From: a virus
Strand: one strand, 5' to 3'
DNA length: 13,648 nucleotides
Virus genome (UHGV): UHGV-0343520
The position numbers and the translations under genes were made by a program. The notes beneath the pieces are model-generated. The model had not been told where the DNA came from and ran no database searches. It saw only the letters and a list, made by a program, of their open reading frames with translations. Below, one piece after another: positions 1 to 13,648 of this stretch (position 1 is the stretch's first letter; each line of letters starts with the position of its first letter).

Positions 1-141
<141 letters not shown>

Positions 142-307
142 TCGTTTTTAATAATAAGTGTTGTATTTCTATCCTTGTATCAGCTATTTGATATGTAGTG
201 TTTGTTCATGTTATGTGGAGCTTTACACCATAGCCAGTTTATTTATACTTTATTCGTCAGCCTGAACAACTGGCATCTGCTGCACTGCGCCATCGAGAGA
301 TTGAGAA

Positions 308-907
308 ATGGCGCATATACAACTGGTCAAACAAACCTCTTCTGGACTACTTCTCCCGGCGACGCCGGAGAGTTGCGATTTTTTGCATCAAATCAAAATA
401 GGCGAGTGGATACACGCAGACTTTAAGCGTGTGCGTAACTACGCATTCCACAAGCGTTTTTTCAAACTCCTGCAACTGGGATTCGATTACTGGACTCCGG
501 TCGGTGGGGCGATCACGCCTCGCGCACGAAAGCTGGTTTCAGGATTCGTTGATTACCTATGTGAATCAGTAGGCCGGGAACATACGCCAGCTCTGAGCGA
601 AGCCGCAGAGCAATATCTGAATACAGTTGCGACACGCAGAACCCGGGATACGGCATTGCTAAAGTCGTTTGAGGCTTTCCGCGAGTGGGTAACCATTCAG
701 GCCGGATTTTACACCGAGCATCTTTATCCTGATGGTAGCCATGGGCGTCGGGCGAAATCCATCGCTTTTGCGAATATGGACGAAACCGAGTTTCAGCAGG
801 TTTATAAATCTGTTCTGAATGTGCTGTGGAACTGGATTCTGTTCCGTAAATTTTCCTCTCCGGAACAAGTCGAAAATGTGACCGCGCAGCTGCTGGAGTT
901 TGCGTAA
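308..907 (+). CDS. DUF1367-like phage protein (nin-region gene upstream of Q)
   Basis: 199-aa ORF with ATG start. Its stop overlaps the next start (TAATG), indicating translational coupling. Size and sequence are consistent with the ~200-aa DUF1367 family found next to Q in lambdoid prophages. Family assignment is from memory, not a search. Confidence 0.7.
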   Translation: MAHIQLVKQTSSGLLLPATPESCDFLHQIKIGEWIHADFKRVRNYAFHKRFFKLLQLGFDYWTPVGGAITPRARKLVSGFVDYLCESVGREHTPALSEAAEQYLNTVATRRTRDTALLKSFEAFREWVTIQAGFYTEHLYPDGSHGRRAKSIAFANMDETEFQQVYKSVLNVLWNWILFRKFSSPEQVENVTAQLLEFA

Positions 908-1197
908 TGGTGGATTTACGTAAAGCGGCGCGGGGGCAGATGTGCACCGTCAGAATTCCTGGCTACTGCAATCACGATCCGGAAACGTCTGTGCTGGCGC
1001 ATTACCGACTGGCGGGAACGTGCGGAACAGCGACAAAACCACACGATATGCAGGCGGCGATTGCCTGTAGCTCATGCCACGATCTAATCGACGGGCGGGT
1101 AAAAACCAGCGATTACACCAAAGAAGAATTACGCCTGATGCATGCAGAAGGTGTTTTTCGCACACAAGAAATCTGGAGAAAGGAGGGATATTTGTGA
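907..1197 (+). CDS. DUF1364 / YbcO-like cysteine-rich phage protein (putative zinc-binding nuclease-like)
   Basis: 96-aa ORF coupled to the upstream gene. Contains five Cys including a CSSCHD motif, suggesting a zinc ribbon. Size matches the ~95-aa YbcO/DUF1364 family of lambdoid nin regions. Confidence 0.7.
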   Translation: MVDLRKAARGQMCTVRIPGYCNHDPETSVLAHYRLAGTCGTATKPHDMQAAIACSSCHDLIDGRVKTSDYTKEELRLMHAEGVFRTQEIWRKEGYL

Positions 1198-1736
1198 TTT
1201 ACCCAACGAATACAGGAAAAAGCGGAGAACACCTTCGTCTCGCCACGCTGGAAAGTGTCTGGATTCAGGGCAAACTGCGTATGTGGGGGCGCTGGTCGTA
1301 TATTGGCGGTGGCAGGTCAGGAAATATGTTCAATCAGTTGTTGGCATCCAAAAAATTGACGAAAACAGCCATCAATGAAGCCCTGCGCAGAATGAAAAAA
1401 GCGGGAATAGAGAAAGCTGAGCTGGAAGCGTTTTTGCGAGAGATGATCAACGGCAAGCAAAAGAGCTGGCTGGCGCATTGTACTGATGCAGAGGCGTTAT
1501 GTATTGATCGAGTCATAAGTGAGGTGCTGGCAGAGCATCCAGGATTGATTTGCATTCTCCGGCAACGCTATGAAGGGCGGGGGATGACTAAGCGTAAAAT
1601 GGCTGAATTGCTAAATGATGCACACCCAGAGTGGTGTTTTAGCACATGCGAAAAACGGATTGCTAATTGGTTAGCTGTTGCTGAGTATGCCCTATATATT
1701 CCCATGCGTGAATCATTTGCTGAGAAAATGGCTTGA
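1194..1736 (+). CDS. Late-gene antiterminator Q-like protein
   Basis: GTG at 1194 is preceded by AGGAGGG (1181-1187) and overlaps the stop of the upstream gene. An in-frame ATG at 1074 is an alternative start but lacks a Shine-Dalgarno. The N-terminal W-x-G-x-W region (RMWGRW) recalls Q proteins of the 933W/PF06530 type. Position is canonical: immediately upstream of a terminator-rich leader and the lysis cassette. Confidence 0.6.
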   Translation: MIYPTNTGKSGEHLRLATLESVWIQGKLRMWGRWSYIGGGRSGNMFNQLLASKKLTKTAINEALRRMKKAGIEKAELEAFLREMINGKQKSWLAHCTDAEALCIDRVISEVLAEHPGLICILRQRYEGRGMTKRKMAELLNDAHPEWCFSTCEKRIANWLAVAEYALYIPMRESFAEKMA

Positions 1737-1820
1737 TTTCTTACGTATAAACTGCTTCAATTTTGCTATGCTTCGCAAAGCTGTATCGCGAGGCGGATTG
1801 CAGACATGGACATCGTAAAA

Positions 1821-1843
1821 AAACCGCTTAATGCGGTTTTTTT
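1821..1843 (+). terminator. Rho-independent terminator downstream of Q (candidate tR'-like)
   Basis: Stem AAACCGC (1821-1827), loop TTAAT, stem GCGGTTT (1833-1839), then a T-run to 1843. An A-tract upstream means it could also terminate on the opposite strand. Confidence 0.7.
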
Positions 1844-2334
1844 ACGTCAGGAAAGCAGGGGAGAATGCTGCTAGTTGGGCAACTGGTCTTTCTGCTTGCT
1901 TAAGTGGAGAATTCGCATATTGGCGTGTAACTTGCGCAGAATACACATCTTTTACACGACTTGTTAGTTTATCCTGCGGCTTGTTATGATTATTTTAGCA
2001 TATTATCAGTTTTCACGGCCTGAATCTTGGTTAAGGCTCTTTATCCTGTTGTAATGACAGAAATAAATGGTGGATGGAATTCAGGACGGTTTGTTTTAAT
2101 AAAAAATGTAACTCAGGAAATAAGTTAACCTAACTGGAATCACTTTCGGATTATTAAGATTGAAGTGCCTTTTCTTCCTTTTTAGTATCGGTGCCAGTTC
2201 CGGGGAGAGCGGCTTTTATTGTTTGATTAGAGCTGACACGAAGAACTAATGTAGATCTGGTTTAGTCGGTATGGCTCATGATTTGAAATCTAATCAGTAG
2301 TTTATTTGTTCGAGCGCGATAGTTGGTACCATAT

Positions 2335-2380
<46 letters not shown>

Positions 2381-2723
2381 CGTGGATGAGGCTCTGGTTT
2401 TGCAGCACTGGCGTTTTTTCGTGGGGAAAGGTCTCCTGAGCTCCTTTATCGCTACCCCAAATTATAACAGAGACCAGTTATAGTTTCGGTGCTGTGTTTT
2501 TTTTACAATATTGTGATAACACATTGCTGGCGGGAGTTTTGATATTCCTTGGCAGGGGATGATGATGCGTTATCCTGATGTCGTCAACTCATATAAAATG
2601 AGATGAGAGATCATCGCCGGGTGGTTTGTAATTCGCTGTTTAGCGGGACAATATGTTGTCTGATACAAGACACCCGACGCCTCAGATTACTATAATAAAG
2701 ACGAAGCATCCTTTGTATTGACC

Positions 2724-2749
2724 AACCGCCTGTTTAGGCGGTTCTTTTT
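2724..2749 (+). terminator. Rho-independent terminator
   Basis: Stem AACCGCCT (2724-2731), loop GTTT, stem AGGCGGTT (2736-2743), followed by CTTTTT. Confidence 0.7.
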
Positions 2750-3272
2750 GGGCTGGTTTATTGTATGCCAAATGATTATTAAAAAGGTTGTGTTAATAAC
2801 AAAATCCGAAATAATATGCCTGCATATTTTTATCTTGCTTATATTGTGCATAGCAGGCTCATCCCTGCAATCAAAACTGTATGATGAGTATTTTTTGTTT
2901 TCCTTTTTTCCAGTCATCTGATGATGACCTGCTTCTTTTTAATCCGGATCGACATCAGTTTTTTAAGATAATTCCTGCGAGTTATATGCACAAATGCCAC
3001 AAACTCCGCATTTTATGTGGTTGGGAGTTGCCGGGCGCGCAGTGAGTTTGCTAAGAAAACTCCTGCATGGTGAATCCCCCTGTGCGGTGGGGTGATACCA
3101 TTAACCTTTTCTGTCGCCGACAGGTATCACGAACATTTTGTTCACCGGGAGGCACCCGGCACCATGCACTTCAATAGATTCTCTCCACATTATGGATATT
3201 CTTTCAGAATATCCCACGCAGACTTTGTGTAAATGTTAACAAATGTGCGTTTTATTTGATCTGATTCGCTGT

Positions 3273-3302
3273 TTGAGCGTCCAAAACAACGGTATATATA
3301 AT
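3273..3302 (+). promoter_or_regulatory. Sigma70-like promoter for the lipoprotein moron genes
   Basis: TTGAGC (3273-3278), 18-bp spacer, TATAAT (3297-3302). This leaves a ~25-nt leader to the ATG at 3332, which has GAGGAAAA as Shine-Dalgarno. Confidence 0.45.
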
Positions 3303-3331
3303 CCTTTACTATATGACATATGTGAGGAAAA

Positions 3332-3760
3332 ATGGGTTTTCGTAGCGCATCAATTCTTACGTTGATTATTAGTGGGATTATTATCGGGTGCACTGATGCT
3401 GTATCGACAAATTATCATGACCGTACATCATATTACTCCGATAAAGCAATAGAGACACAGTATGTGAGTTCATCTGAACGTACTTCTGATGTTAGTGAGG
3501 ATATCCGTCTGTATGCCCATCAAATCAAGAGCGCCATCGAAAAACAGTTCGGGGATGCGAGTAAGTATTCAGGAAAAGAGTGTACACTGAGAATGCATAT
3601 GGCCCCGAATGGCCTTCTACTGGAGGTTAAAAGAGAAAGTGGAGACCTCGATTTATGTCGTGAAGCGATGAATGCGATAAAGAATGCTGATATACCTGCC
3701 CCCCCTTCGCCGGAAGTATATAAAGTATTTCAAAATGGGGTGCTGGATTTTAAACCCTGA
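3332..3760 (+). CDS. Lipoprotein with TolA C-terminal (domain III)-like domain
   Basis: 142 aa. N-terminal signal peptide with lipobox IIGC. The C-terminal ~85 aa (YAHQIKSAIEKQF...CTLRMHMAPNGLLLEVK...PPSPEVYKVFQNGVLDFKP) align closely with the recalled C-terminus of E. coli TolA (...YAGQIKSAIESKF...CTLRIKLAPDGMLLDIK...VFKNAPLDFKP). AT-rich with its own promoter. Confidence 0.8.
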   Translation: MGFRSASILTLIISGIIIGCTDAVSTNYHDRTSYYSDKAIETQYVSSSERTSDVSEDIRLYAHQIKSAIEKQFGDASKYSGKECTLRMHMAPNGLLLEVKRESGDLDLCREAMNAIKNADIPAPPSPEVYKVFQNGVLDFKP

Positions 3761-3910
3761 TATTTATTGTTTTGTAATAAACGGTTTCGGCTTAGGTTTG
3801 TTCTGACACAGCTACGGCACTGAGCTAAATTTAGCGGATAGTCAGCTCTGAGCCAGTGGCGGACGTAACAACTACTATTGCTGAGATTTTAATGGATTGA
3901 GGAGCAAGAA

Positions 3911-4306
3911 GTGGGATTAAAGAAAATCGTTATGTTGACTTTTTGGGTCGGTTTTGTTGCGGGATGCACACCTTTACACCCTTCAGATTGCCACAAAACT
4001 ACTGCTACAGGTAGTTGCAGTTCAGGACGCTGGGATGATCAGGATGAATGGGGGGCGCAAGCGCGGGGAATCAGAGCTGCAATTAATGCCAAACTTGATG
4101 AGCCGCATAACTGGAAAGGGAAAAAATGCAGGTTGCATATGGAATTCTCTCAGGATGGCACGGCGTTAAAAATATCTACCAGTAACGGTGATAAAGCCTA
4201 TTGCGAAGCGATAAAGTCCGCAGCTCATAAAGCCAAATTTCCGGCCTTCAACAATCCGGAAGTCTACAGAGATTTTCAGAAATCTGGCTTTGACATGCGA
4301 GGTTAG
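3911..4306 (+). CDS. Second, divergent lipoprotein with TolA domain III-like C-terminus
   Basis: 131 aa with GTG start after GAGGA. Lipobox VAGC. C-terminal region (IRAAINAKL...KKCRLHMEFSQDGTALKIS...FNNPEVYRDFQKSGFDMRG) follows the same TolA-III pattern as the upstream gene but is more divergent. Confidence 0.75.
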   Translation: MGLKKIVMLTFWVGFVAGCTPLHPSDCHKTTATGSCSSGRWDDQDEWGAQARGIRAAINAKLDEPHNWKGKKCRLHMEFSQDGTALKISTSNGDKAYCEAIKSAAHKAKFPAFNNPEVYRDFQKSGFDMRG

Positions 4307-4431
4307 CTCTTCAATTACTATATCTCATTCATAGCAAACTGACAGATTTAATGATGTTCTATATACGAAACCTGTGATGTCAAGTCTGAGCTAATACAAA
4401 TAAACATAATATCAGAGAAATACATTTTATT

Positions 4432-4453
4432 AGCTCGCTACGGCGAGCTTTTT
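4432..4453 (+). terminator. Rho-independent terminator after the lipoprotein pair
   Basis: Stem AGCTCGC (4432-4438), loop TACG, stem GCGAGCT (4443-4449), then a T-run to 4453. Confidence 0.65.
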
Positions 4454-4557
4454 ATATTGCATCGTCTCCAGCATATATATCAATTAAGGCTCTGATTGAT
4501 GTGTCTGAAAGCCTACACATAATAACTATGCCATCCGTTCCGTGCGGAGGTGAGGCT

Positions 4558-4773
4558 ATGAAATCCATGGACAAAATTTCAACAGGCATTGCCTACGGCA
4601 CCTCCGCAGGCAGTGCTGGCTACTGGTTTTTACAGTTGCTCGATAGAGTAACTCCGTCACAGTGGGCTGCAATCGGTGTGCTGGGTAGTCTGGTATTTGG
4701 CCTGCTGACGTACCTGACAAACCTTTATTTCAAGATTAAAGAAGATAAGCGCAAGGCTGCGAGAGGTGAATAA
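4558..4773 (+). CDS. S: Pinholin, phage 21 S21 type (class II holin/antiholin with dual start)
   Basis: Translation [26 protein letters not shown]...[15 protein letters not shown] is near-identical to S21 as recalled. Dual-start motif M-K-S-M, with GGAGGTGA just upstream. Stop overlaps the endolysin start. Confidence 0.9.
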
Positions 4774-5270
4774 TGCCTCCATCATTACGAAAAGTCGTTG
4801 CTGCTGCTATTGGTGGCGGAGCAATTGCTATAGCATCAGTGTTAATCACTGGCCCAAGTGGTAACGATGGTCTGGAAGGTGTCAGCTACATACCATACAA
4901 AGATATTGTTGGTGTATGGACTGTATGTCACGGGCATACAGGAAAAGACATCATTCCCGGTAAAACGTATACCAAAGCAGAATGCAAAACACTCTTGAAT
5001 AAAGACCTTGCCACTGTCGCCAGACAAATTAACCCGTACATCAAAGTCGATATACCGGAAACAACGCGCGGCGCTCTTTACTCATTCGTTTACAACGTGG
5101 GTGCTGGCAATTTCAGAACATCGACGCTTCTTCGCAAAATAAACCAGGACGATATCAAAGGCGCATGTGATCAGCTACGTCGCTGGACATATGCTGGCGG
5201 TAAGCAATGGAAAGGTCTCATGACTCGTCGTGAGATTGAGCGTGAAATCTGTTTGTGGGGTCAGCAATGA
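4773..5270 (+). CDS. R: SAR endolysin (R21-type lysozyme with signal-anchor-release domain)
   Basis: 165 aa. N-terminal Gly/Ala-rich SAR domain ([18 protein letters not shown]) followed by a lysozyme catalytic region. Near-identical to phage 21 R as recalled. Confidence 0.92.
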
Positions 5271-5731
5271 ACAGAGTAACCGCGATTATCTCCGCTCTGG
5301 TTATCTGCATCATCGTCTGCCTGTCATGGGCTGTTAATCATTACCGTGATAACGCCATTACCTACAAAGCCCAGCGCGACAAAAATGCCAGAGAACTGAA
5401 GCTGGCGAACGCGGCAATTACTGACATGCAGATGCGTCAGCGTGATGTTGCTGCGCTCGATGCAAAATACACGAAGGAGTTAGCTGATGCGAAAGCTGAA
5501 AATGATGCTCTGCGTGATGATGTTGCCGCTGGTCGTCGTCGGTTGCACATCAAAGCAGTCTGTCAGTCAGTGCGTGAAGCCACCACCGCCTCCGGCGTGG
5601 ATAATGCAGCCTCCCCCCGACTGGCAGACACCGCTGAACGGGATTATTTCACCCTCCGGGAACGACTGGTAATGATGCAGGCCCAACTTGAAGGTGCTCA
5701 GCAATACATAACCGAGCAGTGTTTAAAGTAA
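5267..5731 (+). CDS. Rz: Rz, inner-membrane spanin (i-spanin)
   Basis: ATG at 5267 overlaps the endolysin stop. N-terminal transmembrane helix and coiled-coil periplasmic domain. Matches lambda Rz as recalled. Confidence 0.9.
5487..5672 (+). CDS. Rz1: Rz1, outer-membrane lipoprotein spanin (o-spanin), embedded in Rz in the +1 frame
   Basis: 61 aa. Lipobox VVGC and a proline-rich mature region ([16 protein letters not shown]). Matches lambda Rz1 and lies wholly inside Rz, the classic embedded architecture. Confidence 0.9.
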
Positions 5732-5868
5732 AATCTTAACTACAATATGATTCATTTTGATGATTGTTTCATAAGGAACAGTGAAGTAAGATCTAAGAGG
5801 AGTTAAATTTTATACAGTATAATCATAATATTGCAGCAAGGTGGTTATAATTGAAAGAATATTTAGAT

Positions 5869-7326
5869 ATGAATACATCTCATGTAAGAGTTGTTACTCA
5901 TATGTGTGGGTTCCTGGTTTGGCTCTATAGTCTTTCAATGTTGCCACCAATGGTTGTAGCATTGTTTTATAAAGAAAAAAGCCTGTTCGTTTTCTTTATA
6001 ACTTTCGTTATATTTTTTTGCATTGGTGGCGGAGCGTGGTATACAACTAAGAAATCTGGCATTCAATTACGTACCCGTGATGGGTTTATTATAATTGTAA
6101 TGTTTTGGATTTTGTTTTCTGTTATTAGTGCATTCCCTTTATGGATTGACTCAGAACTTAATTTAACGTTCATTGATGCTCTGTTTGAAGGGGTTTCTGG
6201 AATAACAACAACAGGAGCAACTGTAATTGATGATGTTAGTTCATTACCTCGGGCATATTTGTACTATCGGTCACAGTTAAATTTTATAGGTGGTTTAGGA
6301 GTTATTGTTCTGGCGGTTGCTGTATTGCCATTATTGGGTATTGGTGGTGCAAAGCTTTATCAGTCAGAAATGCCGGGGCCATTTAAGGATGACAAACTCA
6401 CTCCCCGCCTGGCCGATACGTCACGGACACTGTGGATAACTTATTCTTTATTAGGTATTGCTTGTATTGTCTGTTATAGACTTGCAGGAATGCCTTTGTT
6501 TGATGCTATTTGTCACGGGATTTCCACAGTTTCGCTTGGTGGTTTCTCAACTCATAGCGAGAGTATCGGATATTTTAATAACTATTTGGTTGAGCTGGTG
6601 GCTGGTTCTTTTTCCCTGCTATCGGCTTTCAACTTCACTCTTTGGTATATTGTTATTAGCAGGAAAACGATAAAACCTTTAATCAGAGATATTGAACTTC
6701 GTTTCTTTCTGTTAATAGCCTTAGGGGTGATCATTGTTACCTCTTTCCAGGTCTGGCATATAGGTATGTATGACTTGCATGGAAGTTTTATTCATTCGTT
6801 TTTTCTTGCCAGCTCCATGCTCACTGATAATGGTTTAGCTACGCAGGATTATGCAAGTTGGCCCACGCACACGATAGTGTTTTTGCTGTTGTCAAGTTTC
6901 TTTGGGGGATGTATAGGTTCAACTTGTGGTGGAATTAAGTCACTTCGATTTCTTATACTTTTCAAACAAAGCAAACACGAGATAAATCAGCTTTCTCATC
7001 CCAGAGCGTTGTTGAGTGTAAATGTAGGAGGGAAGATAGTTACAGATCGTGTAATGAGGTCTGTATGGAGTTTCTTTTTTCTTTATACTCTCTTCACGGT
7101 GTTTTTTATACTGGTGTTAAATGGTATGGGATATGATTTTCTTACATCATTTGCAACAGTGGCTGCATGTATTAATAATATGGGATTAGGTTTTGGGGCT
7201 ACTGCATCGTCATTCGGAGTGCTTAATGACATTGCAAAATGTTTAATGTGCATAGCTATGATTCTTGGTCGCCTTGAAATTTATCCTGTTATTATATTGT
7301 TTTCAGGTTTTTTTTGGCGCTCCTAA
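5869..7326 (+). CDS. trkG: TrkH/TrkG-family potassium uptake protein (prophage-borne)
   Basis: 485 aa from ATG 5869 (MNTSHVRV...). An in-frame TTG at 5851 with AGGTGG upstream is an alternative start. Multi-pass membrane protein with Gly-rich selectivity-filter-like segments (GITTTGAT, GIGGAK, LGGFSTH, STCGG). Strongly AT-rich relative to its neighbours. trkG is known to sit in the Rac prophage downstream of Rz/Rz1. Confidence 0.9.
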   Translation: MNTSHVRVVTHMCGFLVWLYSLSMLPPMVVALFYKEKSLFVFFITFVIFFCIGGGAWYTTKKSGIQLRTRDGFIIIVMFWILFSVISAFPLWIDSELNLTFIDALFEGVSGITTTGATVIDDVSSLPRAYLYYRSQLNFIGGLGVIVLAVAVLPLLGIGGAKLYQSEMPGPFKDDKLTPRLADTSRTLWITYSLLGIACIVCYRLAGMPLFDAICHGISTVSLGGFSTHSESIGYFNNYLVELVAGSFSLLSAFNFTLWYIVISRKTIKPLIRDIELRFFLLIALGVIIVTSFQVWHIGMYDLHGSFIHSFFLASSMLTDNGLATQDYASWPTHTIVFLLLSSFFGGCIGSTCGGIKSLRFLILFKQSKHEINQLSHPRALLSVNVGGKIVTDRVMRSVWSFFFLYTLFTVFFILVLNGMGYDFLTSFATVAACINNMGLGFGATASSFGVLNDIAKCLMCIAMILGRLEIYPVIILFSGFFWRS

Positions 7327-7412
7327 TATATGGCTGATTTATAATTGTGAGTTTAATATTATGTTGACTCACTCATTGATCCAATACCTAACTTTACCAG
7401 CAACCCCTCCGT

Positions 7413-7447
7413 CCCCAGTAGCACTGGCTGCTGGGGTGCGTTTTATT
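7413..7447 (+). terminator. Candidate intrinsic terminator downstream of trkG
   Basis: Stem CCCCAGTAGC (7413-7422), loop ACTG, stem GCTGCTGGGG (7427-7436) with one G-U pair, followed by TGCGTTTTATT. Confidence 0.5.
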
Positions 7448-7463
7448 CATAAAGCAAGGCTGT

Positions 7464-9179
7464 ATGAGCGAGAAATTAAAGATAGTCTATCGCCCATTAC
7501 AAGAATTGTCACCGTATGCGCACAACGCCAGGACGCACAGTACTGAGCAGGTGGCACAACTGGTAGAAAGTATTAAGCAATTCGGCTGGACTAATCCGGT
7601 GCTGATTGACGAAAAGGGCGAAATTATTGCGGGTCACGGTCGTGTTATGGCGGCTGAAATGCTCAAAATGGATTCTGTTCCGGTCATTGTTCTGTCTGGC
7701 CTGACGGATGAGCAGAAAAAGGCGTACCGCCTGGCAGATAATCGCCTGCCGATGAATGCTGGCTGGGATGAAGATCTGTTGCGGATGGAGCTGTCGGACC
7801 TAATCAATGCTGATTTTGATGTCTCCCTGACAGGCTTCATCCCGACAGAAATTGATGAACTGTTGACGGATGTTTTGCCCGGTACAGGAAATGAGGAGGA
7901 GCCGTATACGACGAAAATTGATACGCCTGTTTATGAGCCGTCGGGCGGTAAACCGGATATCAGTGAACTGTACGACGATACGAAAACTCAGGAGCTGATC
8001 AGCCGGATACGTTCGGCGTCCCTTGAGCCTGATATTGAGAAATTCCTCCTGTGTGCGGCAGAACGTCACACGGTGTTTAATTTCAGCAGAATTGCGGACT
8101 ATTACGCTCACGCCCCCGCTGAAATTCAGTGTTTTTTCGAGGAGTCGGCGCTGGTGATCATTGATTATCAGCAGGCTATTGAAAATGGATTTGTCCGGAT
8201 GACGCAGCGCATGGTGGAGATCATGCATGGTGGTGAGGAGGAGAATATGCGTGATGATTTTTGCGCCTTTATTCTGACTCACGGGCGACCGGACAAAGTT
8301 CTGACTTACCGGACGTTGCGTCGTGCTGGCTATACCGGGAAAATTTTTATCGTTGTTGATGATGAAGATAAGACACGGCATCAGTACATGGCTGAATTTG
8401 GTGAACAGGTGCTGGTGTTTTCCAAAGCCGATATCGCCAGTCGTTTTGACGAAGCCGATAATTTCTGTGACCGCCGCTCAATTTTTTACGCCCGTAATGC
8501 CTGTTTCGACCAGGCAAAACTGGTCGGGTGTAAATACTTCATTCAGCTCGATGATGATTATCACGAGTTCCAGTTTCGGGTGGATCGCAACTATGACCAG
8601 GCCTATTTTCCGATAAGGAAACTGGATGCGATCCTTTCTGAAATGCTGGCGTACTACGAATCAATACCTGCTCTTTCCATCGCTATGTCGCAGGGCGGGG
8701 ATTTTCTTGGTGACAATGGCGGCCATGCTTCGTGGGTGAAACGCAAGGCAATGAACAGCTTTATCTGTTCGGTTGATCGACCGTTCTCATTCATGGGGCG
8801 CATTAACGAGGATGTGAATACGTACACGAATCTCGGTCGCTGTGGTGAATTGTTTATGACGATCGGTGCTGTCCAGTTAGGGCAGAAACAGACGCAGAAA
8901 AACAGCGGCGGAATGACCGAGCTGTATCTGGATTCCGGAACCTACGTTAAAAGTTTTTACTCCGTCATGTATGCGCCGTCGTGCGTAAAAATCTCACTGA
9001 TGGGTGCCAGCCATAAACGCATTCACCATCAGGTCACCTGGAACAACGCTGCAGTAAAAATCCTTCACGAAAAATACAGGAAGAAGACACCCTGCATATC
9101 AATGGGGGTGACAAATGATTCCGTATTCGAAAGTCGAGTCTCTGGCAGCGTGCCGGATGACTGCACAACAAATCGCTGA
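7464..9179 (+). CDS. ParB/Srx-like N-terminal domain protein fused to a large uncharacterised C-terminal domain (not a recognisable methyltransferase; DxD-type motifs)
   Basis: 571 aa. The N-terminal ~130 aa (IVYRPLQELSPYAHNARTH...IIAGHGRVMAA...KKAYRLADN) is a typical ParB-like nuclease-domain module as found on phage DNA methyltransferases. The C-terminal ~430 aa has no DPPY/NPPY or FxGxG motifs but has acidic clusters (FIVVDDEDK, IQLDDDYHEF). Position between the lysis cassette and terminase is typical of phage ParB-fusion enzymes. Confidence 0.8.
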   Translation: MSEKLKIVYRPLQELSPYAHNARTHSTEQVAQLVESIKQFGWTNPVLIDEKGEIIAGHGRVMAAEMLKMDSVPVIVLSGLTDEQKKAYRLADNRLPMNAGWDEDLLRMELSDLINADFDVSLTGFIPTEIDELLTDVLPGTGNEEEPYTTKIDTPVYEPSGGKPDISELYDDTKTQELISRIRSASLEPDIEKFLLCAAERHTVFNFSRIADYYAHAPAEIQCFFEESALVIIDYQQAIENGFVRMTQRMVEIMHGGEEENMRDDFCAFILTHGRPDKVLTYRTLRRAGYTGKIFIVVDDEDKTRHQYMAEFGEQVLVFSKADIASRFDEADNFCDRRSIFYARNACFDQAKLVGCKYFIQLDDDYHEFQFRVDRNYDQAYFPIRKLDAILSEMLAYYESIPALSIAMSQGGDFLGDNGGHASWVKRKAMNSFICSVDRPFSFMGRINEDVNTYTNLGRCGELFMTIGAVQLGQKQTQKNSGGMTELYLDSGTYVKSFYSVMYAPSCVKISLMGASHKRIHHQVTWNNAAVKILHEKYRKKTPCISMGVTNDSVFESRVSGSVPDDCTTNR

Positions 9180-9366
9180 CGTTCTGGATGTTGATCTGAA
9201 CCGACTGAAAGAAAATCGGGAAGCAATGACAGATTTTTATGCGGCCATCCGTAAGGGCAGAGCGAAAGGTGAAGCCGAGTTACGAGCGGCATTGTTTAAG
9301 CTTGCCAGAAAAGGGGATGCCTTTGCTCTGCGCGAACTACTCAGGGTGGATAAAAATCAGGACTAA
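9115..9366 (+). CDS. Small hypothetical protein, possibly a helix-turn-helix DNA-binding protein preceding the terminase
   Basis: 83-aa ORF with GGGGGTGA upstream of ATG 9115. An alternative ATG lies at 9157. It overlaps the 3' end of the ParB-fusion ORF by 65 nt and ends 4 nt before the terminase small subunit start. Function not recognised. Confidence 0.45.
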   Translation: MIPYSKVESLAACRMTAQQIADVLDVDLNRLKENREAMTDFYAAIRKGRAKGEAELRAALFKLARKGDAFALRELLRVDKNQD

Positions 9367-9369
9367 CTG

Positions 9370-10464
9370 ATGAGCAGACCGGACTGGGGGGCGTTGCAGC
9401 AGGAGTATATTGCTGAATACACCCGCTCCGGTATATCTCCGGTGGCATGGTGTGAAGCAAGGGGACTGAATTACGCAACAGCCCGTCGTTACATCAAAAA
9501 AACTCCGAAAAATGCGCAGACAGAAATGTGCAAAACTGCGCAAAAAAGTGCGCAGAAAAAATCTGCGCAGACTGCACAAAAGCGGAACGAAAAATCTCAG
9601 GAAAAAAAGCCAGTATTCGATGCGGGCCTGAATGAGGGCGACGCGGAGGAATTTTCGTTCTGTCCCGATGAATTCGGCATTTCTGACCAGCAGGCTAAGT
9701 TTGCGATGCTTGTTGCTCAGGGTAAAAAGCCGACAGAGGCGTACCGACTAGCCGGTTATGAGGGGCAAGGTGCGACAGCTAACAGCAACGCCAGTCGTAT
9801 GCTTAGAAATGCCAGGGTTTTTCGCGCTATCAGCTACTTCCGCAATCAGTACCAGAAACGCTATACCGCAGACCTGGATTTACTAGTGAGTCAGTTGATG
9901 GCTATTGTCCTGGCCGACCCCAATCAGCTTGCACAATTTCGCCGTGTTAACTGCCGTTATTGCTGGGGCGAGAATCATCTCTACCAGTGGCGCGATATAG
10001 CAGAATTCGACAAGGCAGCGGCGCAGGCTTCCAGAGATGGCAAACCCGAACCGGAATATGGAGGCCTCGGCTTTGTTGATAACGCCATACCCAATCCGGA
10101 CTGCCCGAAGTGCTGCGGTGAGGGAACGGGACAGCTTTATATGGCTGATACCACTCTGCTTGATGGGGATGCGCGGCAATTATATGCAGGGGCAAAATTC
10201 GGAAAATTCGGCGTTGAGATCCTGCTGGAGGATAAGGCTGCCGCCCGGCGTGAATTGTTGCGTTTGTTTTCTGCTGGCGGGGCTTTATGTGCAGATAAAC
10301 GGCTACAGGAACTGGAAATTGAACGGCGCAGAATGGAAAACCAGAAGCTGCGCAAAGAGATCGAAACGGTGGAAGATAATGAACATCCCCAGCCTGTGGC
10401 GATCAATATTAATGTGGTTGATGCCAGAGTAAGGAGTGATGAAGATGATCTCTCCGACGCTTAA
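9370..10464 (+). CDS. Terminase small subunit (Terminase_2/P27-like core with N-terminal extension and C-terminal Cys-rich region)
   Basis: 364 aa. Central region (ISDQQAKFAMLVAQGKKPTEAYRLAGY...SRMLRNARV) is typical of P27-family small terminases. It lies immediately upstream of, and overlapping, the large subunit. Has an N-terminal HTH-like segment, a Lys/Gln-rich low-complexity repeat, and CxxC...CxxCC cysteines. Confidence 0.8.
   Translation: MSRPDWGALQQEYIAEYTRSGISPVAWCEARGLNYATARRYIKKTPKNAQTEMCKTAQKSAQKKSAQTAQKRNEKSQEKKPVFDAGLNEGDAEEFSFCPDEFGISDQQAKFAMLVAQGKKPTEAYRLAGYEGQGATANSNASRMLRNARVFRAISYFRNQYQKRYTADLDLLVSQLMAIVLADPNQLAQFRRVNCRYCWGENHLYQWRDIAEFDKAAAQASRDGKPEPEYGGLGFVDNAIPNPDCPKCCGEGTGQLYMADTTLLDGDARQLYAGAKFGKFGVEILLEDKAAARRELLRLFSAGGALCADKRLQELEIERRRMENQKLRKEIETVEDNEHPQPVAININVVDARVRSDEDDLSDA
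9513..9578 (+). repeat. Cluster of short direct repeats TGCGCA(G/A)A within the terminase small subunit gene
   Basis: TGCGCA occurs at 9513, 9537, 9549 and 9564, with variants TGTGCA (9527) and TGCACA (9573), all within ~65 bp. They encode the AQK-rich low-complexity peptide. Confidence 0.6.
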
Positions 10465-11746
10465 TGTGCCTCAGGCGCGATTTCTTTCAATGCCCCATAA
10501 ATTTAAAGCCTATATTGCTGGTTTTGGCTCGGGCAAAACATGGGTTGGGTGTGGCGGCATATGCAAGGGGATTTGGGAGCATCCAGGTATAAATCAGGGA
10601 TATTTTGCGCCAACGTATCCCCAAATTCGCGATATTTTTTACCCTACAGTGGAAGAAGTTGCTGCTGACTGGGGATTGAACGTAAAAATTAATGAGGGAA
10701 ATAAAGAGGTTCACTTTTATTACGGACGCCAGTATCGGGGAACCACTATCTGCAGATCGATGGAGAAGCCACAAACGATCGTCGGTTTCAAAATTGGTAA
10801 TGCGTTGGTGGATGAACTGGACATTTTGCCGAAGGAAAAAGCCAGAACGGCGTGGCGCAAGATAATTGCACGTATGCGTTATAAGATTGATGGACTTCGC
10901 AACGGTATTGACGTTACAACCACGCCGGAAGGATTCAAATTTGTCTACGAGCAGTTTGTTAAAGCCGTGCGTGAAAAAACAGAGCTGGCCTCACTGTATG
11001 GTCTGGTGCAGGCATCTACTTTCGATAATGAAAAGAACCTGCCAGCAGATTACATTCCTTCGCTTCTTGAATCATACCCTCCAGAGCTGATTAAAGCCTA
11101 TCTTCGAGGACAGTTTACTAACCTGACAAGTGGTACTGTTTACCATCAGTTTGACCGGAAACTGAATAATTGCGAAGAAGTGGAGCAGCCAGGGGAGCCG
11201 ATTTATATTGGGATGGATTTTAACGTTGGAAAGATGGCGGGAATCGTCCATGTGCTGCGTTTGGGGCTTCCATGTGCGGTAACTGAAATCATCAATGCCT
11301 ACGATACGCCGGATATGATCCGCATCATTAAAGAACGCTTCTGGCTGTATGATGGGAATGATTACCGGAAAGTGAGGGAAATTTATATTTATCCAGATGC
11401 TTCCGGGGATTCCAGAAAATCAAGTAACGCAAGTACGACGGATATAGCCCAGCTTAAGCAGGCTGGTTTTAACGTTGTGGTGAACAGCTCGAACCCGCCA
11501 GTAAAAGATCGCGTTAACTCAATGAATGCAATGTTCTGCAATGCCAATGGTGAGCGTCGCTATAAAGTTAATGTGAAGCGTTGCCCGTTATATGCCGAAT
11601 CTCTGGAGCAACAGGTCTGGGATGAGAAGGGGGAGCCTGATAAAAAATCTGGCAATGATCACCCGAATGATGCCGGAGGTTATTTCATCGTTAAGCAATT
11701 CCCTATTGTCAAACCGACCGGAAGAGTCACATCACTTCGGATTTAA
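10445..11746 (+). CDS. Terminase large subunit (ATPase/nuclease)
   Basis: Walker A motif AGFGSGKT near the N-terminus and acidic nuclease-domain motifs in the C-terminal half (YIGMDFNVG, YPDASGDS, NDHPNDAGG). ATG 10445 is 8 nt after AAGGAG (10431-10436). The ORF is open from GTG 10436. Overlaps the small subunit stop. Confidence 0.9.
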   Translation: MISPTLNVPQARFLSMPHKFKAYIAGFGSGKTWVGCGGICKGIWEHPGINQGYFAPTYPQIRDIFYPTVEEVAADWGLNVKINEGNKEVHFYYGRQYRGTTICRSMEKPQTIVGFKIGNALVDELDILPKEKARTAWRKIIARMRYKIDGLRNGIDVTTTPEGFKFVYEQFVKAVREKTELASLYGLVQASTFDNEKNLPADYIPSLLESYPPELIKAYLRGQFTNLTSGTVYHQFDRKLNNCEEVEQPGEPIYIGMDFNVGKMAGIVHVLRLGLPCAVTEIINAYDTPDMIRIIKERFWLYDGNDYRKVREIYIYPDASGDSRKSSNASTTDIAQLKQAGFNVVVNSSNPPVKDRVNSMNAMFCNANGERRYKVNVKRCPLYAESLEQQVWDEKGEPDKKSGNDHPNDAGGYFIVKQFPIVKPTGRVTSLRI

Positions 11747-11748
11747 TT

Positions 11749-13155
11749 ATGGCTGATATATCAACACCCAACCTCGACTATAACGATATGCTGGAGGCGT
11801 GGGATATTAACGACGCACTGATGGGCGGTACGCTTGAAATGCGCAGGCAGGGGGAAAATTATCTCCCAAAATGGCCTAACGAAGATGAAGACGCTTATAA
11901 AAAACGCCTGTCTGTGGCTACGCTACTTCCTGTGTATGAAGAAAGCATCAAGCAAAATATTGGGCGCATATTTGCAGAGCCGACAGTATTGAGTGAGGAA
12001 ACGCCGGCAAAAATCAGGGAATATGCAGAAAATATCGACATGGAGGGGAGCCGACTGGATGTGTGGGCGCAGCAATTTTTCAGCCTCGCATTTCAGTATG
12101 GTGTGGCACATGCGCTGGTGGACTATCCACGAACGGATATGAAAGAGATTCGGACAAAAGCCGATGAAAACGCGACCGGTGGTCGTCCGTACGTTACGAT
12201 GCTGAATCCACGCCAGGTTATTGGATGGAAATCGAAAGTTGAAAAAGGGAAAGTTGTTCTCACTGATTTGCGTATAAAAGAGGTCATCATTATTGATGGT
12301 GATGATTTCGGGCAGAAGAAGGTGGAGCAGATCCGCCATATTATGCCCCGTCGAGTTGAAATTTATCGACGTAGCGAAGGCACTAATGGCGAATCTGTCT
12401 GGACGCTTCATGAGTCATGGAATACCAGCCGTGATGATATTCCTCTGGTAACACTGTACACGAAGAAAACAGGATTTATGCGTGGTACACCGCCATTGCT
12501 TAATCTTGGCTTGCTGAATATCAAGCACTGGCAAAGCCAGAGCGAGCAGGACAATATTCTTCATGTTGCCCGCGTTCCATTGCTGGTGGCCTACGGGCTG
12601 GACAGGAATGAAGAACTGACGGTTGGTGCATCCACCGCTACGATTTTTGAGGACAGAACAAAAAATGGCCTCGAATATGTTGAACATAGTGGCGCAGCGA
12701 TAGAATCTGGCGAAACATCACTTGAGAAGCTGGAAAATCAGATGCGTCATGCCGGCGCTAAACTTCTGCGTGCTGAAAATACATCCACCAAATCTGTTGA
12801 TCAGACTAATGAAGAGCGAATGCAGGAAAACTCGCCGCTTTATACAATGGCGAACTCCCTCGAAGATGCCCTCGATAATATTCTCCAGATAATGGCGGAA
12901 TGGATCGGAGAGAGTTGCGGTGGCAATGTGGATGTGCGCACTGAACTGGATGTATCTGCCCAGGTGTTTGACTCATCCTCCGCGCTGGCTGTTCAGTCAT
13001 TGCGTCAGGGCGGTGATATACGTCAGATTGATGCGGTTCGGGTGTTGCAGGCGTTGAAATTTATCGATCAGGATTCCCGTCCAGAGGAAGTGATCGATGA
13101 ATTAAAAAATCAGAGTGTAATGCTGATGGAAATCAATGATGCAAACCGTGAATGA
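11749..13155 (+). CDS. Portal protein
   Basis: 468-aa ORF immediately after the large terminase and before a head-morphogenesis-like gene. Size and acidic C-terminus are consistent with a portal. Family not confirmed by search. Confidence 0.75.
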   Translation: MADISTPNLDYNDMLEAWDINDALMGGTLEMRRQGENYLPKWPNEDEDAYKKRLSVATLLPVYEESIKQNIGRIFAEPTVLSEETPAKIREYAENIDMEGSRLDVWAQQFFSLAFQYGVAHALVDYPRTDMKEIRTKADENATGGRPYVTMLNPRQVIGWKSKVEKGKVVLTDLRIKEVIIIDGDDFGQKKVEQIRHIMPRRVEIYRRSEGTNGESVWTLHESWNTSRDDIPLVTLYTKKTGFMRGTPPLLNLGLLNIKHWQSQSEQDNILHVARVPLLVAYGLDRNEELTVGASTATIFEDRTKNGLEYVEHSGAAIESGETSLEKLENQMRHAGAKLLRAENTSTKSVDQTNEERMQENSPLYTMANSLEDALDNILQIMAEWIGESCGGNVDVRTELDVSAQVFDSSSALAVQSLRQGGDIRQIDAVRVLQALKFIDQDSRPEEVIDELKNQSVMLMEINDANRE

Positions 13156-13648
13156 ACGGCTGCGTGATGAATCAATTGCTCATGCAGTCTGGATATCCCG
13201 CTATAGCACTGGCGTGGCTGCCAGAATGGTGAAAATACTGAATGACAGCGATGCGGAACTTACTGCTCGCCTGCTGATAGCACTGGACAGCCTCGATCCA
13301 GGTAGTTTTACCGTTAAGCGCCTGGAGTCACTTCTGGCGAGCGTCAGAGAGGTTGGCTGGAATACATTAAGACCGTTTGCTATTGATAACGCAACCGGCG
13401 AACTGGTTATTGGAACCAAGCTGTCTGCAAGTCTGAACGGTAACGCATTGACAGCAACAAAGCTGCAAACGCCAAGACTGGTTTCTGGGGTTGAGTTTGA
13501 TGGTTCAAAAGATATTACTTTAACCGCCGCGCATGTGGCTGCTTTTGCCAGAAGGGCAACGGATACATATGCCGATGCGGATGGTGGCGTTCCCTGGAAT
13601 GCCGAATCAGGCGCTTACAATGTCACCCGCTCTGGCGACAGCTATATT
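13136..13648 (+). CDS. Partial ORF (runs off window): head-morphogenesis-like N-terminus continuing into tail-fibre-like repeat sequence; possible fusion or pseudogene
   Basis: ATG 13136 or 13139 overlaps the portal stop, and the frame is open to the window end. The N-terminus (MMQTVNERLRDESIAHAVWISRY...) sits where a minor head protein is expected. From about residue 80 the sequence (GTKLSASLNGNALTATKLQTPRLVSGVEFDGSKDITL) resembles side-tail-fibre repeats. Confidence 0.55.
   Translation, partial: MMQTVNERLRDESIAHAVWISRYSTGVAARMVKILNDSDAELTARLLIALDSLDPGSFTVKRLESLLASVREVGWNTLRPFAIDNATGELVIGTKLSASLNGNALTATKLQTPRLVSGVEFDGSKDITLTAAHVAAFARRATDTYADADGGVPWNAESGAYNVTRSGDSYI

What the first reader, a model, noticed from the sequence alone, without database searches (positions are those of the whole stretch)
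13136..13648. Possible deletion scar: head-morphogenesis-like N-terminus running directly into tail-fibre-like repeats
The ORF after the portal begins like a minor head (morphogenesis) protein. After ~80 residues the sequence switches to motifs characteristic of lambdoid side tail fibres (TATKLQTPR...GVEFDGSKDITL). If this is real, the capsid, tail-shaft and tape-measure genes are missing and the prophage is defective despite its intact lysis and terminase genes, as with the Rac remnant in K-12. The ORF is cut by the window end, so this is tentative.
Basis: inference. Interest (0 to 1): 0.5.

Follow-up and report, generated by a model that had tools for sequence, protein, structure and literature searches.

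The report
Deletion scar at a prophage hotspot
A deletion of about 19 kb in a Rac-type E. coli prophage has fused the start of a head-assembly gene, in frame, to the last third of a tail-fibre gene; the scar itself is ordinary prophage decay, but the break sits on one exact TA dinucleotide where at least eleven other deletions in public E. coli genomes also begin.

Summary
Window 1-13354 is 99.7-100% identical to intact Rac-type prophages (lysis genes, trkG, ParB/TAGT, terS, terL, portal, first 72 codons of the Mu-F/SPP1-gp7-type minor head gene). Window 13354-13648 is 99.7% identical to codons 753-850 of the side tail-fibre gene stfR. The two meet at 13354|13355, in frame, sharing one nucleotide. 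About 19-20 kb are missing: the scaffold, P22-type coat, connector, tube, tape-measure, tip (K, I, J) and lom genes, and two-thirds of stfR.

This exact junction occurs in none of 5,426 complete E. coli genomes or the other collections searched.

The left breakpoint is not random. It is the central TA of the palindrome GGTTAACC. Eleven other deletions start there and end in K, J, lom, stfR (three sites), an S74 fibre, sit genes (two sites), an acyltransferase island and an inverted fibre segment. One rearrangement ends there from the other side. One junction recurs on two haplotypes. Partner sites nearly always carry TA in GC-rich flanks.

No known recombinase, IS, att, or type II topoisomerase motif fits the site, so the mechanism remains open.

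The parts
4501..5731 (+). Context: intact lysis cassette (P21-type holin, lysozyme, Rz)
   Evidence: Pfam PF04971, PF00959, PF03245. Collinear with relatives.
5851..7326 (+). Context: trkG, the cargo gene that marks Rac-type prophages
   Evidence: Annotated TrkG under the match in relatives. TrkH Pfam hit in all related loci.
9370..11746 (+). Context: terminase small subunit (9370-10464) and large subunit (10436-11746), full length
   Evidence: Same lengths as in the intact relative L001. 99.8% identity.
11749..13155 (+). Portal gene (DUF4055), full length, 468 aa
   Evidence: 100% identical to WP_000763701-type portal genes.
13139..13354 (+). Codons 1-72 of the minor head (Mu-F/SPP1 gp7-like) gene: the retained left side of the deletion
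   Evidence: 100% identity to intact genes up to 13354. The Mu-F domain (residues 153-274 of the intact protein) is lost.
13345..13354 (+). Left arm (CAGAGAGGTT) of the 20-bp imperfect palindrome CAGAGAGGTT|AACCGCACTG. Its core GGTTAACC is the recurrent breakpoint. The junction is 13354|13355.
   Evidence: Palindrome found in the intact gene (I3). Three-way alignment at the junction. Eleven other junctions at the same TA.
13355..13648 (+). stfR codons 753-850 (side tail fibre), in frame with the head N-terminus and cut by the window end
   Evidence: 99.7% identity to stfR of many E. coli. Position within stfR. Native stfR sequence upstream of the joint is ...TTTATGGT|GGCTGG.

Best explanation
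The ORF at 13139 onwards is a chimeric pseudogene left by a single deletion of about 19-20 kb inside a Rac-type lambdoid prophage of E. coli. Codons 1-72 of the minor head gene are joined in frame to codon 753 of stfR. Everything between is gone: the rest of the head gene, the scaffold, P22-type coat, head-tail connector, tail terminator, tail tube, ydaY, tape measure, M, L, K, I, J and lom genes, and the first 752 codons of stfR. The prophage therefore keeps lysis, terminase and portal genes but cannot build capsids or tails. This much is shown by sequence comparison.

The joint was made by illegitimate recombination, not homologous recombination, because only one nucleotide is shared. Its left end is a recurrent, nucleotide-precise breakpoint: the central TA of GGTTAACC. 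From this point at least eleven other deletions run rightwards to different places in the same prophage. This is shown by comparison with public assemblies.

Inferred, not shown: this TA suffers a site-specific break, nick or strand-exchange event. Its 3' end is then joined to a downstream T-A (rarely T-G) step that lies in GC-rich flanks. The responsible activity is not identified.

The in-frame fusion is a by-product, not a function. In E. coli genes TA falls mostly on codon boundaries (NNT|ANN), so TA-to-TA joints tend to preserve the frame.
For: Scar:
- two near-perfect alignments abut at 13354|13355.
- intact relatives carry 19 genes between the two joined points.
- the gap is about 20.0 kb in APEC 102026, including an IS1203, so about 18.7 kb without it.
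- the frame is kept, and the predicted product is 72 + 380 aa.
- the chimera lacks the Mu-F domain and the fibre's N-terminal tail-attachment domain PF08400.

Hotspot:
- among short proteins that begin like the head protein, 13 clusters depart at residue 72/73, against 9 scattered over residues 46-160.
- DNA junctions: K is GGTTA|ACTGG; J is GGT[TA]CCGCG; sitB is GGT[TA]GCGG; sitB/A is G[GTTA]CGCC; stfR C-terminus is GGT[TA]TTGG and GGT[TA]CTGT; the S74 fibre is G[GTTAAC]GGGG; the acyltransferase island is GGT[TAAC]TGAT; the inverted tfa'/stf' segment is GGTT|AGCGGG.
- lom and the stfR N-terminus are inferred from the protein plus the native DNA.
- in L045 the same site is used as the retained right end.
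- the same head x stfR joint sits on two haplotypes that differ at -6, -15 and further SNPs on the left and at +21 and +34 on the right, in prophages that also differ elsewhere.
- other deletions in the same loci use ordinary microhomologies (GA, CTG.TG, GAGGAGGAG), so the TA signature is specific to this site.
- partner TAs are GC-flanked compared with 1,358 background TAs (p about 1e-4 to 1e-5, post hoc), and codon phase does not explain this.
- 56% of TA dinucleotides in the coding sequence lie on codon boundaries.
Against: - The window's own junction is a singleton. It is absent from 5,426 complete E. coli genomes, the phage collection, metagenome, GTDB and IMG/VR scans and 5.8 billion proteins. 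Its downstream sequence could not be seen.
- Hotspot alleles are individually rare. The site is intact in 723 of 739 complete genomes that carry the region, in 32 of 32 metagenome contigs and in 56 of 57 IMG/VR contigs.
- The hotspot census comes from a protein search that only returned short proteins, not from an unbiased survey.
- Two junctions (P0017, P0023) were seen only as proteins.
- The partner-site statistics were devised after looking at the data.
- No enzyme is identified, and the site is not conserved in distant homologues of the gene (SVWDTNR, SVRELNQ, SVKAINK).
Confidence: 0.88

Rival explanations
1. Assembly artefact: the window is a chimeric contig in which an assembler joined a head-gene contig to a repeated tail-fibre sequence.
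For: The exact junction is found nowhere else. The window ends inside stfR, a multi-copy sequence with up to 6 places per genome, as draft contigs often do.
Against: Only 1 nt is shared at the joint, so there is no repeat to mis-join. The joint falls exactly on the TA used by eleven other deletions, two of them in complete genomes (WL164; BE2-5). An assembler could not know that position.
Confidence: 0.05
2. The deletion is real but the shared endpoint means nothing. Either the junction alleles descend from one ancestral deletion reshaped by later events and homologous exchange, or they are a chance cluster of ordinary microhomology deletions.
For: Rac-type prophages sit at the same chromosomal site and recombine between strains. 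Fusions of Stf C-termini to portal, ClpP, terminase, tape-measure, I and J genes are common in public data. A head(1-223)::Stf(853-) fusion with other endpoints also exists (P0163).
Against: Right partners span about 11 to 27 kb and include the smallest deletion (K). Larger deletions would have had to restart at exactly the same nucleotide. Junctions occur on both main haplotypes. Ten or more distinct joints fall at one codon, against one or two at any other codon between 46 and 160. Other joints in the same loci lack the TA signature.
Confidence: 0.07
3. Hotspot mechanism A (generic, favoured): a recurrent single- or double-strand break or replication stall at the TA, followed by microhomology-mediated end joining or template switching (MMBIR-like). 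The right-hand end is degraded because no correctly oriented Chi protects it.
For: Microhomologies of 1-6 nt all overlap the same T. All Chi sites are on the + strand, with none in the other orientation for more than 25 kb to the right. L045 shows short inserted fragments (80 nt and 155 nt) and an inversion, as in serial template switching.
Against: RecBCD would also resect the left end (the nearest active Chi is 772 nt away), yet the left end is kept to the nucleotide. The model does not explain the GC-flanked partner preference or the repeated use of the same partner. The cause of the break is unknown, and no stable hairpin forms (z = -0.84).
Confidence: 0.35
4. Hotspot mechanism B: strand transfer by a type IA topoisomerase (E. 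coli Topo I or III). The enzyme cuts single-stranded DNA at T|A with C at -4, stays on the 5' A, and religates it to a foreign 3'-OH T.
For: The published in vivo Topo I rule is a cut at a TA dinucleotide 4 nt downstream of a required C (PMC9352719). Eight of 9 partner sites with a known native sequence have C at -4 on at least one strand, against 49.5% of background TAs (P = 0.018), and 3 of 9 have it on both strands. The crossover is exactly T|A.
Against: The head site itself has G at -4 on both strands, and the paper calls the C strictly required. The consensus T at -2 is mostly absent. The statistic is weak and post hoc.
Confidence: 0.1
5. Hotspot mechanism C: conservative site-specific recombination with a 2-bp TA core, by a serine recombinase using the palindrome as a strong quasi-site and other TA sites as weak partners. 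This would resemble Cin acting on quasi-cix sites.
For: The 20-bp dyad symmetry is centred on TA. Every event is compatible with exchange within a 2-bp core that is T-A in both partners, or T-A x T-G resolved either way. The same pair of sites recombined twice. pinR lies at the right end of these prophages.
Against: The site is GGT-TA-ACC, not the ...AAACC-NN-GGTTT... core of hix/gix/cix, and no good hix-like site lies at the partners (consensus from my own knowledge). Invertases normally give inversions, not deletions. Several affected prophages have sit genes in place of pinR. Partners do not resemble the head site beyond TA (p = 0.26).
Confidence: 0.1
6. Hotspot mechanism D: other site-specific cutters. 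Candidates are type IIA topoisomerases (4-nt overhangs annealing through a central TA, favoured by quinolones), terminase (a pac-like cut leaving one protected end), or a TA-targeting mobile element that inserts and then excises imprecisely.
For: - Trimming the 5'-adducted nucleotide of 4-nt overhangs would reproduce the observed pattern of +1 from the head site and +4 from the partner. Several partners carry GTAT or ATAC, which are type IIA determinants (PMC3814380 and PMC10117906).
- All partners lie inside the prophage (attR is just before uspF), which fits a phage-linked process.
- Phage P1 pac cleavage protects one end only (my own knowledge).
Against: - The head site lacks -4G, -2A, -1T and a cut before G.
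- pac sites lie in or next to terS in the headful phages I know of, and no phage record starts at the site.
- No insertion element was seen at the site in any locus or protein, and IS630-type elements prefer CTAG.
Confidence: 0.12

Closest known systems
Rac cryptic prophage of E. coli K-12, and prophage 'grounding' and decay in general
   Same: Same element type: trkG, ParB-like ynaK, ydaY, lom, stfR, tfaR, pinR, with the att site at ttcA. Like K-12 Rac it has lost its morphogenetic genes by internal deletion. Decay of prophages by deletion is well described (PMC6379469).
   Different: By my own knowledge of its gene list, K-12 Rac has lost terminase, portal and head genes entirely and keeps a tape-measure remnant and a full stfR. 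Here lysis, terS, terL and portal are intact, and one deletion runs from head codon 72 to stfR codon 753. The endpoints are different, and this allele is in no complete genome.
Other chimeric Stf fusions in E. coli prophages
   Same: Public proteins join Stf C-terminal parts to portal, ClpP, TerL, Nu1, tape-measure, I, J and ParB N-termini. P0163 joins head residues 1-223 to Stf 853 onwards. These are the same kind of scar.
   Different: Those fusions have scattered endpoints. The window's left endpoint is the shared TA of GGTTAACC.
Deletion hot spots with one fixed end at a nick or arrest site (M13 and pC194 replication origins, terB), and Cin recombinase acting on quasi-cix sites (my own knowledge, not checked in the paper library)
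   Same: One endpoint is fixed to the nucleotide and the other is variable. There is little or no homology at the joint, and in the Cin case the 2-bp core is shared.
   Different: No replication origin, Ter site, HUH nick site or cix/hix-like sequence is recognisable here. The fixed end lies inside an ordinary phage structural gene.
In vivo cleavage specificity of E. coli topoisomerase I (PMC9352719)
   Same: Cleavage occurs at a TA dinucleotide with C at -4. Eight of 9 partner sites fit on at least one strand.
   Different: The recurrent head site does not have the required C. No link between Topo I and large deletions was tested here.

Membership tests
Rac-type lambdoid prophage | trkG cargo gene between the lysis genes and the ParB-like/terminase genes | tested here: met
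   Window 5851-7326 is annotated trkG in relatives at 99.7% identity.
Rac-type lambdoid prophage | Integration next to ttcA with att core TTGTTCAGGTTGTATTGTTCTTTCTT, and recET/intR at the left end | not testable with these tools
   The window holds neither end. Relatives with the same late region have them.
Rac-type lambdoid prophage | stfR-tfaR-pinR at the right end | tested here: inconclusive
   The stfR part is present at 99.7% identity. tfaR and pinR would lie beyond the window end.
Phage_Mu_F / SPP1 gp7-type minor head protein (functional member) | Mu-F domain PF04233 (residues 153-274 of the 370-aa protein) | tested here: not met
   Only residues 1-72 remain, and there is no Pfam hit on the chimera's N-terminal part.
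Lambdoid side tail fibre Stf (functional member) | N-terminal tail-attachment domain PF08400 (phage_tail_N) | tested here: not met
   PF08400 lies at residues 1-134 of intact StfR, and the chimera starts at residue 753.
Lambdoid side tail fibre Stf (functional member) | C-terminal collar and receptor-binding part (PF07484 and others) | not testable with these tools
   It would lie downstream of the window. It is present in the modelled chimera built from L002.
Serine-invertase (Hin/Gin/Cin/Pin) crossover site | 26-bp site with an ...AAACC-NN-GGTTT... core | tested here: not met
   The hot site is GGT-TA-ACC. The scan for hix-like cores found nothing at the hot site or its partners. The consensus comes from my own knowledge.
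Serine-invertase (Hin/Gin/Cin/Pin) crossover site | Identical 2-bp core in both partners | tested here: inconclusive
   TA in 9 partners with a known native sequence and TG in 2. Microhomology joining would give the same result.
Type IIA topoisomerase (gyrase/Topo IV) cleavage site | -4G, -2A, -1T | 4-bp stagger, cut before G | +5A, +6T, +8C | tested here: not met
   The head site GAGG|TTAA|CCGC matches only -4G and +8C. Some partners carry GTAT or ATAC, but in another register.
E. coli Topo I cleavage site | Cut at T|A with C at -4 | tested here: inconclusive
   Partners: 8 of 9 on at least one strand (P = 0.018). Head site: G at -4 on both strands.
IS-mediated adjacent deletion | IS element retained at the fixed endpoint | tested here: not met
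   No IS at any of the junctions; head DNA abuts partner DNA directly.

The most novel reading that the evidence does not exclude
The central TA of GGTTAACC in the minor head gene of Rac-type prophages is the substrate of a specific, so far unrecognised DNA cleavage or strand-transfer activity, host- or phage-encoded. This activity repeatedly and precisely deletes the capsid and tail genes by joining the site to GC-flanked TA steps downstream. That would be a sequence-directed route to prophage inactivation rather than random decay.
Probability: 0.3. Interest if true: 0.75.

Novelty: new variant of a known kind. Interest (0 to 1): 0.5.

Why it matters
The scar is one more defective prophage. 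It shows that intact lysis, terminase and portal genes do not make a prophage inducible to particles, which matters for prophage-prediction tools that count such hallmark genes.

The recurrent breakpoint is the interesting part. Nucleotide-precise re-use of one deletion endpoint in independent lineages, with a defined partner signature (TA in GC-rich flanks), is a natural and abundant record of an illegitimate-recombination mechanism in E. coli. It could be turned into a simple reporter assay. If a specific activity is behind it, it would explain how one widespread prophage family is repeatedly disarmed. It would also give a handle on RecA-independent rearrangements, whose enzymology in bacteria is still poorly defined.

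Tried and rejected
- Extending the window. An exact-protein look-up of the window's ParB-TAGT ORF found nothing. The modelled full chimera is not in the protein collection. No collection holds the junction.
- A hairpin or cruciform at the site. Folding gives z = -0.84 and only a 20-bp imperfect palindrome.
- Homology-guided partner choice. Partners do not resemble the head site beyond TA (p = 0.26). The J and lom2 resemblance to TAACCGCGCTG looks anecdotal.
- IntR/att. The Rac att core is unrelated to the site.
- Pin-type sites. There is no hix/gix-like core.
- Gyrase or Topo IV. The head site does not fit the published motif.
- HpaI-like restriction at GTT|AAC. Most junctions keep GGTTA, and only one partner is itself a GTTAAC site.
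- An IS at the site. None was seen.
- A pac site. No phage record begins at the site.
- Sequential re-use of the left half, first suggested by the shared ...RKV allele of P0013 and P0017. I withdrew this because the allele exists in an intact prophage.
- Codon phase as the cause of the GC-rich flanks. Background TAs have similar flanks in all three phases.
- A literature search for this hotspot or for GGTTAACC in this context found nothing relevant.
Full report
**1. The observation**

The ORF that follows the portal gene starts at 13139 (a second ATG lies at 13136) and is still open at the window end after 170 codons.
- A megablast of 12600-13648 against 5,426 complete E. coli genomes matched positions 12600-13354 at 100% identity. 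The match covers the portal (DUF4055) gene and the start of the 'phage minor head protein' gene of many strains.
- A second search with 13250-13648 matched 13354-13648 at 99.7% identity to stfR, annotated 'prophage tail fiber N-terminal domain-containing protein'.
- In neither search did a single genome hold both parts in one place.
- A three-way alignment shows the switch directly. The intact head gene reads ...GTCAGAGAGGTTAACCGCACTG. The window reads ...GTCAGAGAGGTTGGCTGGAATAC. Native stfR reads ...TTTATGGTGGCTGGAATAC.
- The joint is 13354|13355, and only the T at 13354 is common to both parents.
- Position 13354 is the third base of head codon 72. The matching stfR base is the third base of codon 752 of a 1132-codon gene, so the fusion is in frame. 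The switch is at residue 72/73 rather than at about 80.

**2. What the element is**

Window 138-1795 and 5267-13354 are 98.6-99.8% identical to an intact prophage of strain 7/2 (L001). The best relative overall is APEC 102026, at 99.7% over 138-13354.
- These prophages carry, in order: Q-like genes, holin, lysozyme, Rz, trkG, a ParB-like gene, a TET-associated glycosyltransferase gene, terS, terL, portal, minor head, scaffold (DUF6651), P22-type coat, connector genes, tail terminator, tube, ydaY, tape measure, M, L, K, I, J, lom, stfR, tfaR and pinR. The host genes uspF and ompN follow.
- Relatives have recE/recT, xisR, intR and ttcA at the other end.
- The att core TTGTTCAGGTTGTATTGTTCTTTCTT is repeated just before uspF.
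- This is the Rac family. Integration at ttcA and the incompleteness of K-12 Rac are described in PMC6379469.

**3. What was lost**

In APEC 102026 the head breakpoint and the stfR breakpoint lie about 20.0 kb apart, including an IS1203. That is about 18.7 kb without the IS.
- Nineteen whole genes and parts of two others lie between the breakpoints.
- The window keeps a full lysis cassette, terS (364 aa), terL and portal (468 aa), with the same lengths as in intact relatives.
- The predicted fusion product is 72 residues of head protein plus StfR 753-1132, 452 aa in total. It lacks the Mu-F domain of the head protein and the N-terminal tail-attachment domain of the fibre.
- I therefore read it as a pseudogene. 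The prophage should lyse cells if induced but cannot make particles. That last step follows from what is known of tailed-phage assembly and was not tested.

**4. A singleton allele**

The exact joint was not found in any of the following:
- complete E. coli genomes;
- the phage collection;
- 32 metagenome contigs, 2 species-representative genomes and 57 IMG/VR contigs that contain the 24 nt to the left of the joint;
- 5.8 billion proteins, searched with a modelled full-length chimera.

The window's fused ParB-TAGT ORF is also not on record. I could not extend the window.

**5. The left breakpoint is shared**

The first protein search returned only short proteins. Many of them begin like the head protein and then change. 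Thirteen clusters depart at residue 72/73, and nine others are scattered between residues 46 and 160. I fetched the DNA for most of them. The junctions are listed below.

| Right partner | Junction sequence | Locus or protein |
|---|---|---|
| K (C40 peptidase) | GGTTA\|ACTGGTGG | L003 |
| J C-terminus | GGT[TA]CCGCGCTGG | L006-L009 |
| sitB | GGT[TA]GCGGCC | L005 |
| sitB/sitA boundary region | G[GTTA]CGCCAGG | L046 |
| stfR C-terminus, site 1 | GGT[TA]TTGGTGC | L047, L059, L060 |
| stfR C-terminus, site 2 (9 nt upstream of site 1) | GGT[TA]CTGTCGG | L048 |
| S74-type fibre | G[GTTAAC]GGGG | L004; complete genome WL164; IMG/VR L106 |
| acyltransferase/McrBC island | GGT[TAAC]TGAT | L049-L051 |
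| antisense of an inverted tfa'/stf' segment | GGTT\|AGCGGG | L057, L058 |
| stfR N-terminus | protein plus native DNA only | P0017 |
| lom | protein plus native DNA only | P0023 |

- Brackets mark bases present in both parents.
- With the window, that makes twelve different right partners for one left end.
- In strain BE2-5 (L045) the same site is the retained right end, joined to the terS stop codon through TTAA. It forms part of a complex rearrangement.
- The breakpoint is the centre of GGTTAACC, itself the core of a 20-bp imperfect palindrome, CAGAGAGGTT|AACCGCACTG.

**6. Are these events independent?**
- The junctions occur on both main haplotypes of the gene (GCGAGC.../GCGAGT..., K/T at residue 60).
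- The head x stfR-C1 joint is found on two haplotypes. They differ at five positions within 75 nt on the left (the nearest at -6) and at +21 and +34 on the right. The two prophages also differ elsewhere: one has a ParB::portal fusion and the other has intact terminase genes.
- The sitB site of L005 is also the right end of a different deletion, lom codon 17|sitB, in L006.
- The smallest deletion (to K) cannot be the parent of the others unless later deletions restarted at the same nucleotide.
- I first took the shared ...RKV allele of P0013 and P0017 as evidence of sequential re-use. I withdrew that because the allele exists in the intact prophage of APEC 102026.

**7. Signature of the events**
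- Every partner with a known native sequence has a T in register with the fourth base of GGTTAACC. Nine have TA. Two (K and the window's stfR site) have TG.
- Shared bases range from 1 to 6 nt and always include that T.
- Other deletions in the same loci use unrelated microhomologies: GA, CTG.TG, GAGGAGGAG.
- Beyond TA, partners do not resemble the head site (p = 0.26).
- Partners do sit in GC-rich flanks. On average 5.8 of the 8 flanking bases are G or C, against 3.8 for 1,358 other TAs in the same 30 kb (p about 1e-5). G or C fills the -4/+4 positions in 16 of 18 cases. Codon phase does not explain this. These tests were designed after seeing the data.
- TA falls on codon boundaries in 56% of cases in these genes. 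That accounts for six of eight same-strand fusions, including the window's, being in frame.
- All partners lie inside the prophage, because attR is just before uspF.

**8. How common**

Each junction allele is rare. The site is intact in 723 of 739 complete genomes that carry the region, in 32 of 32 metagenome contigs and in 56 of 57 IMG/VR contigs. This is the pattern of many recent, independent, short-lived events.

**9. Mechanism**

Shown: illegitimate joining at a fixed TA. Inferred: a site-specific break, nick, stall or strand exchange at that TA. Candidates I tested:

(a) A generic break plus microhomology joining or template switching.
- This fits the short overlaps and the complex L045 structure.
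- All Chi sites here are on the + strand, with none in the opposite orientation for more than 25 kb downstream. The right-hand end of a break would therefore be unprotected.
- It does not explain why the left end is kept to the nucleotide, or why partners are GC-flanked and re-used.

(b) E. coli Topo I.
- It cuts at TA with a required C at -4 (PMC9352719).
- Eight of 9 partners fit on at least one strand (P = 0.018), but the head site has G at -4 on both strands.

(c) A serine recombinase with a TA core.
- This would fit the dyad symmetry and the fixed register.
- The site is unlike hix/gix/cix cores, invertases give inversions, and several affected prophages lack pinR.

(d) Type IIA topoisomerases.
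- Annealing of 4-nt overhangs through a central TA could give the observed joints, and some partners carry GTAT or ATAC.
- The head site lacks the published determinants.

(e) Other candidates.
- Terminase: no phage record starts at the site.
- HpaI-like restriction: most joints keep GGTTA.
- An inserted element: none was ever seen at the site.
- IntR: the att core is unrelated.
- A hairpin: z = -0.84.

None of these is established.

**10. Comparison with what is known**
- The scar belongs to the well-known class of prophage decay by deletion. It is a new allele of the Rac family, with endpoints different from K-12 Rac.
- Stf C-terminal fusions to other phage genes are common in public data.
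- The recurrent endpoint resembles deletion hot spots at nick or arrest sites, and recombinase action on quasi-sites. Those comparisons rest on my own knowledge. None of their defining sequence features is present here.
- I found no paper describing this site.

**11. Verdict**
- As a deletion scar it is ordinary. Its breakpoint reveals a nucleotide-precise, recurrent deletion hotspot with a defined partner signature and no known mechanism. That lifts the interest to moderate.
- Main limits: the census came from one protein search rather than an unbiased survey; the statistics are post hoc; two junctions were seen only as proteins; the window's own junction is a singleton that I could not extend.

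Noticed in passing
window 3035-3221 (+): Rfam match to sRNA STnc100 (RF02076): 86.6 bits against a gathering score of 47. It lies between the Q-like gene and the TolA-like ORFs.
   Followed up: no
window 3332-3760 and 3911-4306 (+): Two adjacent ORFs with TolA C-terminal domains (PF06519) lie just upstream of the holin. This module is absent from relative L001 but present in L059.
   Followed up: no
window 7464-9179 (+): ParB_N and the TET-associated glycosyltransferase (TAGT, PF20691) are read as one 571-aa ORF. Relatives have two overlapping genes (263 + 310 aa) and are 1 nt longer. The exact fused product is not on record. It could be a real fusion, a frameshift or a sequencing error. No TET/JBP gene is visible nearby.
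   Followed up: partly
window 1-137 and 1796-5266: These stretches do not match the otherwise near-identical relatives (the match to APEC 102026 starts at 138; L001 lacks 1796-5266). They look like mosaic module boundaries.
   Followed up: no
window 6594, 12114, 12582; L001 1495-14983: All Chi sites (GCTGGTGG) are on the + strand, with none in the opposite orientation in the window or for more than 25 kb downstream in relatives. RecBCD protection of a break in this region would therefore be one-sided.
   Followed up: partly
L045 (NZ_CP032986.1, strain BE2-5) 7300-10700: Complex rearrangement: the terS end, then an 80-nt head fragment starting at the hot site, then a 155-nt stfR fragment, then an inverted ParB-TAGT segment. 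It includes a reciprocal inversion with an AAT/AT overlap between L001 at about 11527 and stfR at about codon 999.
   Followed up: partly
L006 4131|4132, and L005 10219|10220: The same sitB position (CCCA-TA-GCGG) is the right end of two different deletions: lom codon 17|sitB in L006 and head|sitB in L005. This looks like a second preferred TA site.
   Followed up: partly
L010 8701-8703: A separate head::lom fusion 27 nt downstream of the hot site also joins at a TA (ATGTT[TA]ACCGCTGG). It recreates a GTTTAACCGC sequence that resembles the hot site.
   Followed up: no
proteins P0084-P0091, P0149, P0162, P0163, P0176, P0189: Many public E. coli proteins are fusions of Stf C-terminal parts to tape measure, ClpP, TerL (GpA), tail protein I, portal, ParB, J, minor head (residues 1-223), Nu1 or TerL. 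Large deletions ending in tail-fibre genes therefore seem common in lambdoid prophages.
   Followed up: partly
L004, L005, L006, L046 (right ends): In some strains a sitABCD-type metal transporter operon and DUF2971/DUF4236 genes replace pinR-ydfK between the tail-fibre genes and uspF. That places them inside the prophage boundary defined by attR.
   Followed up: no
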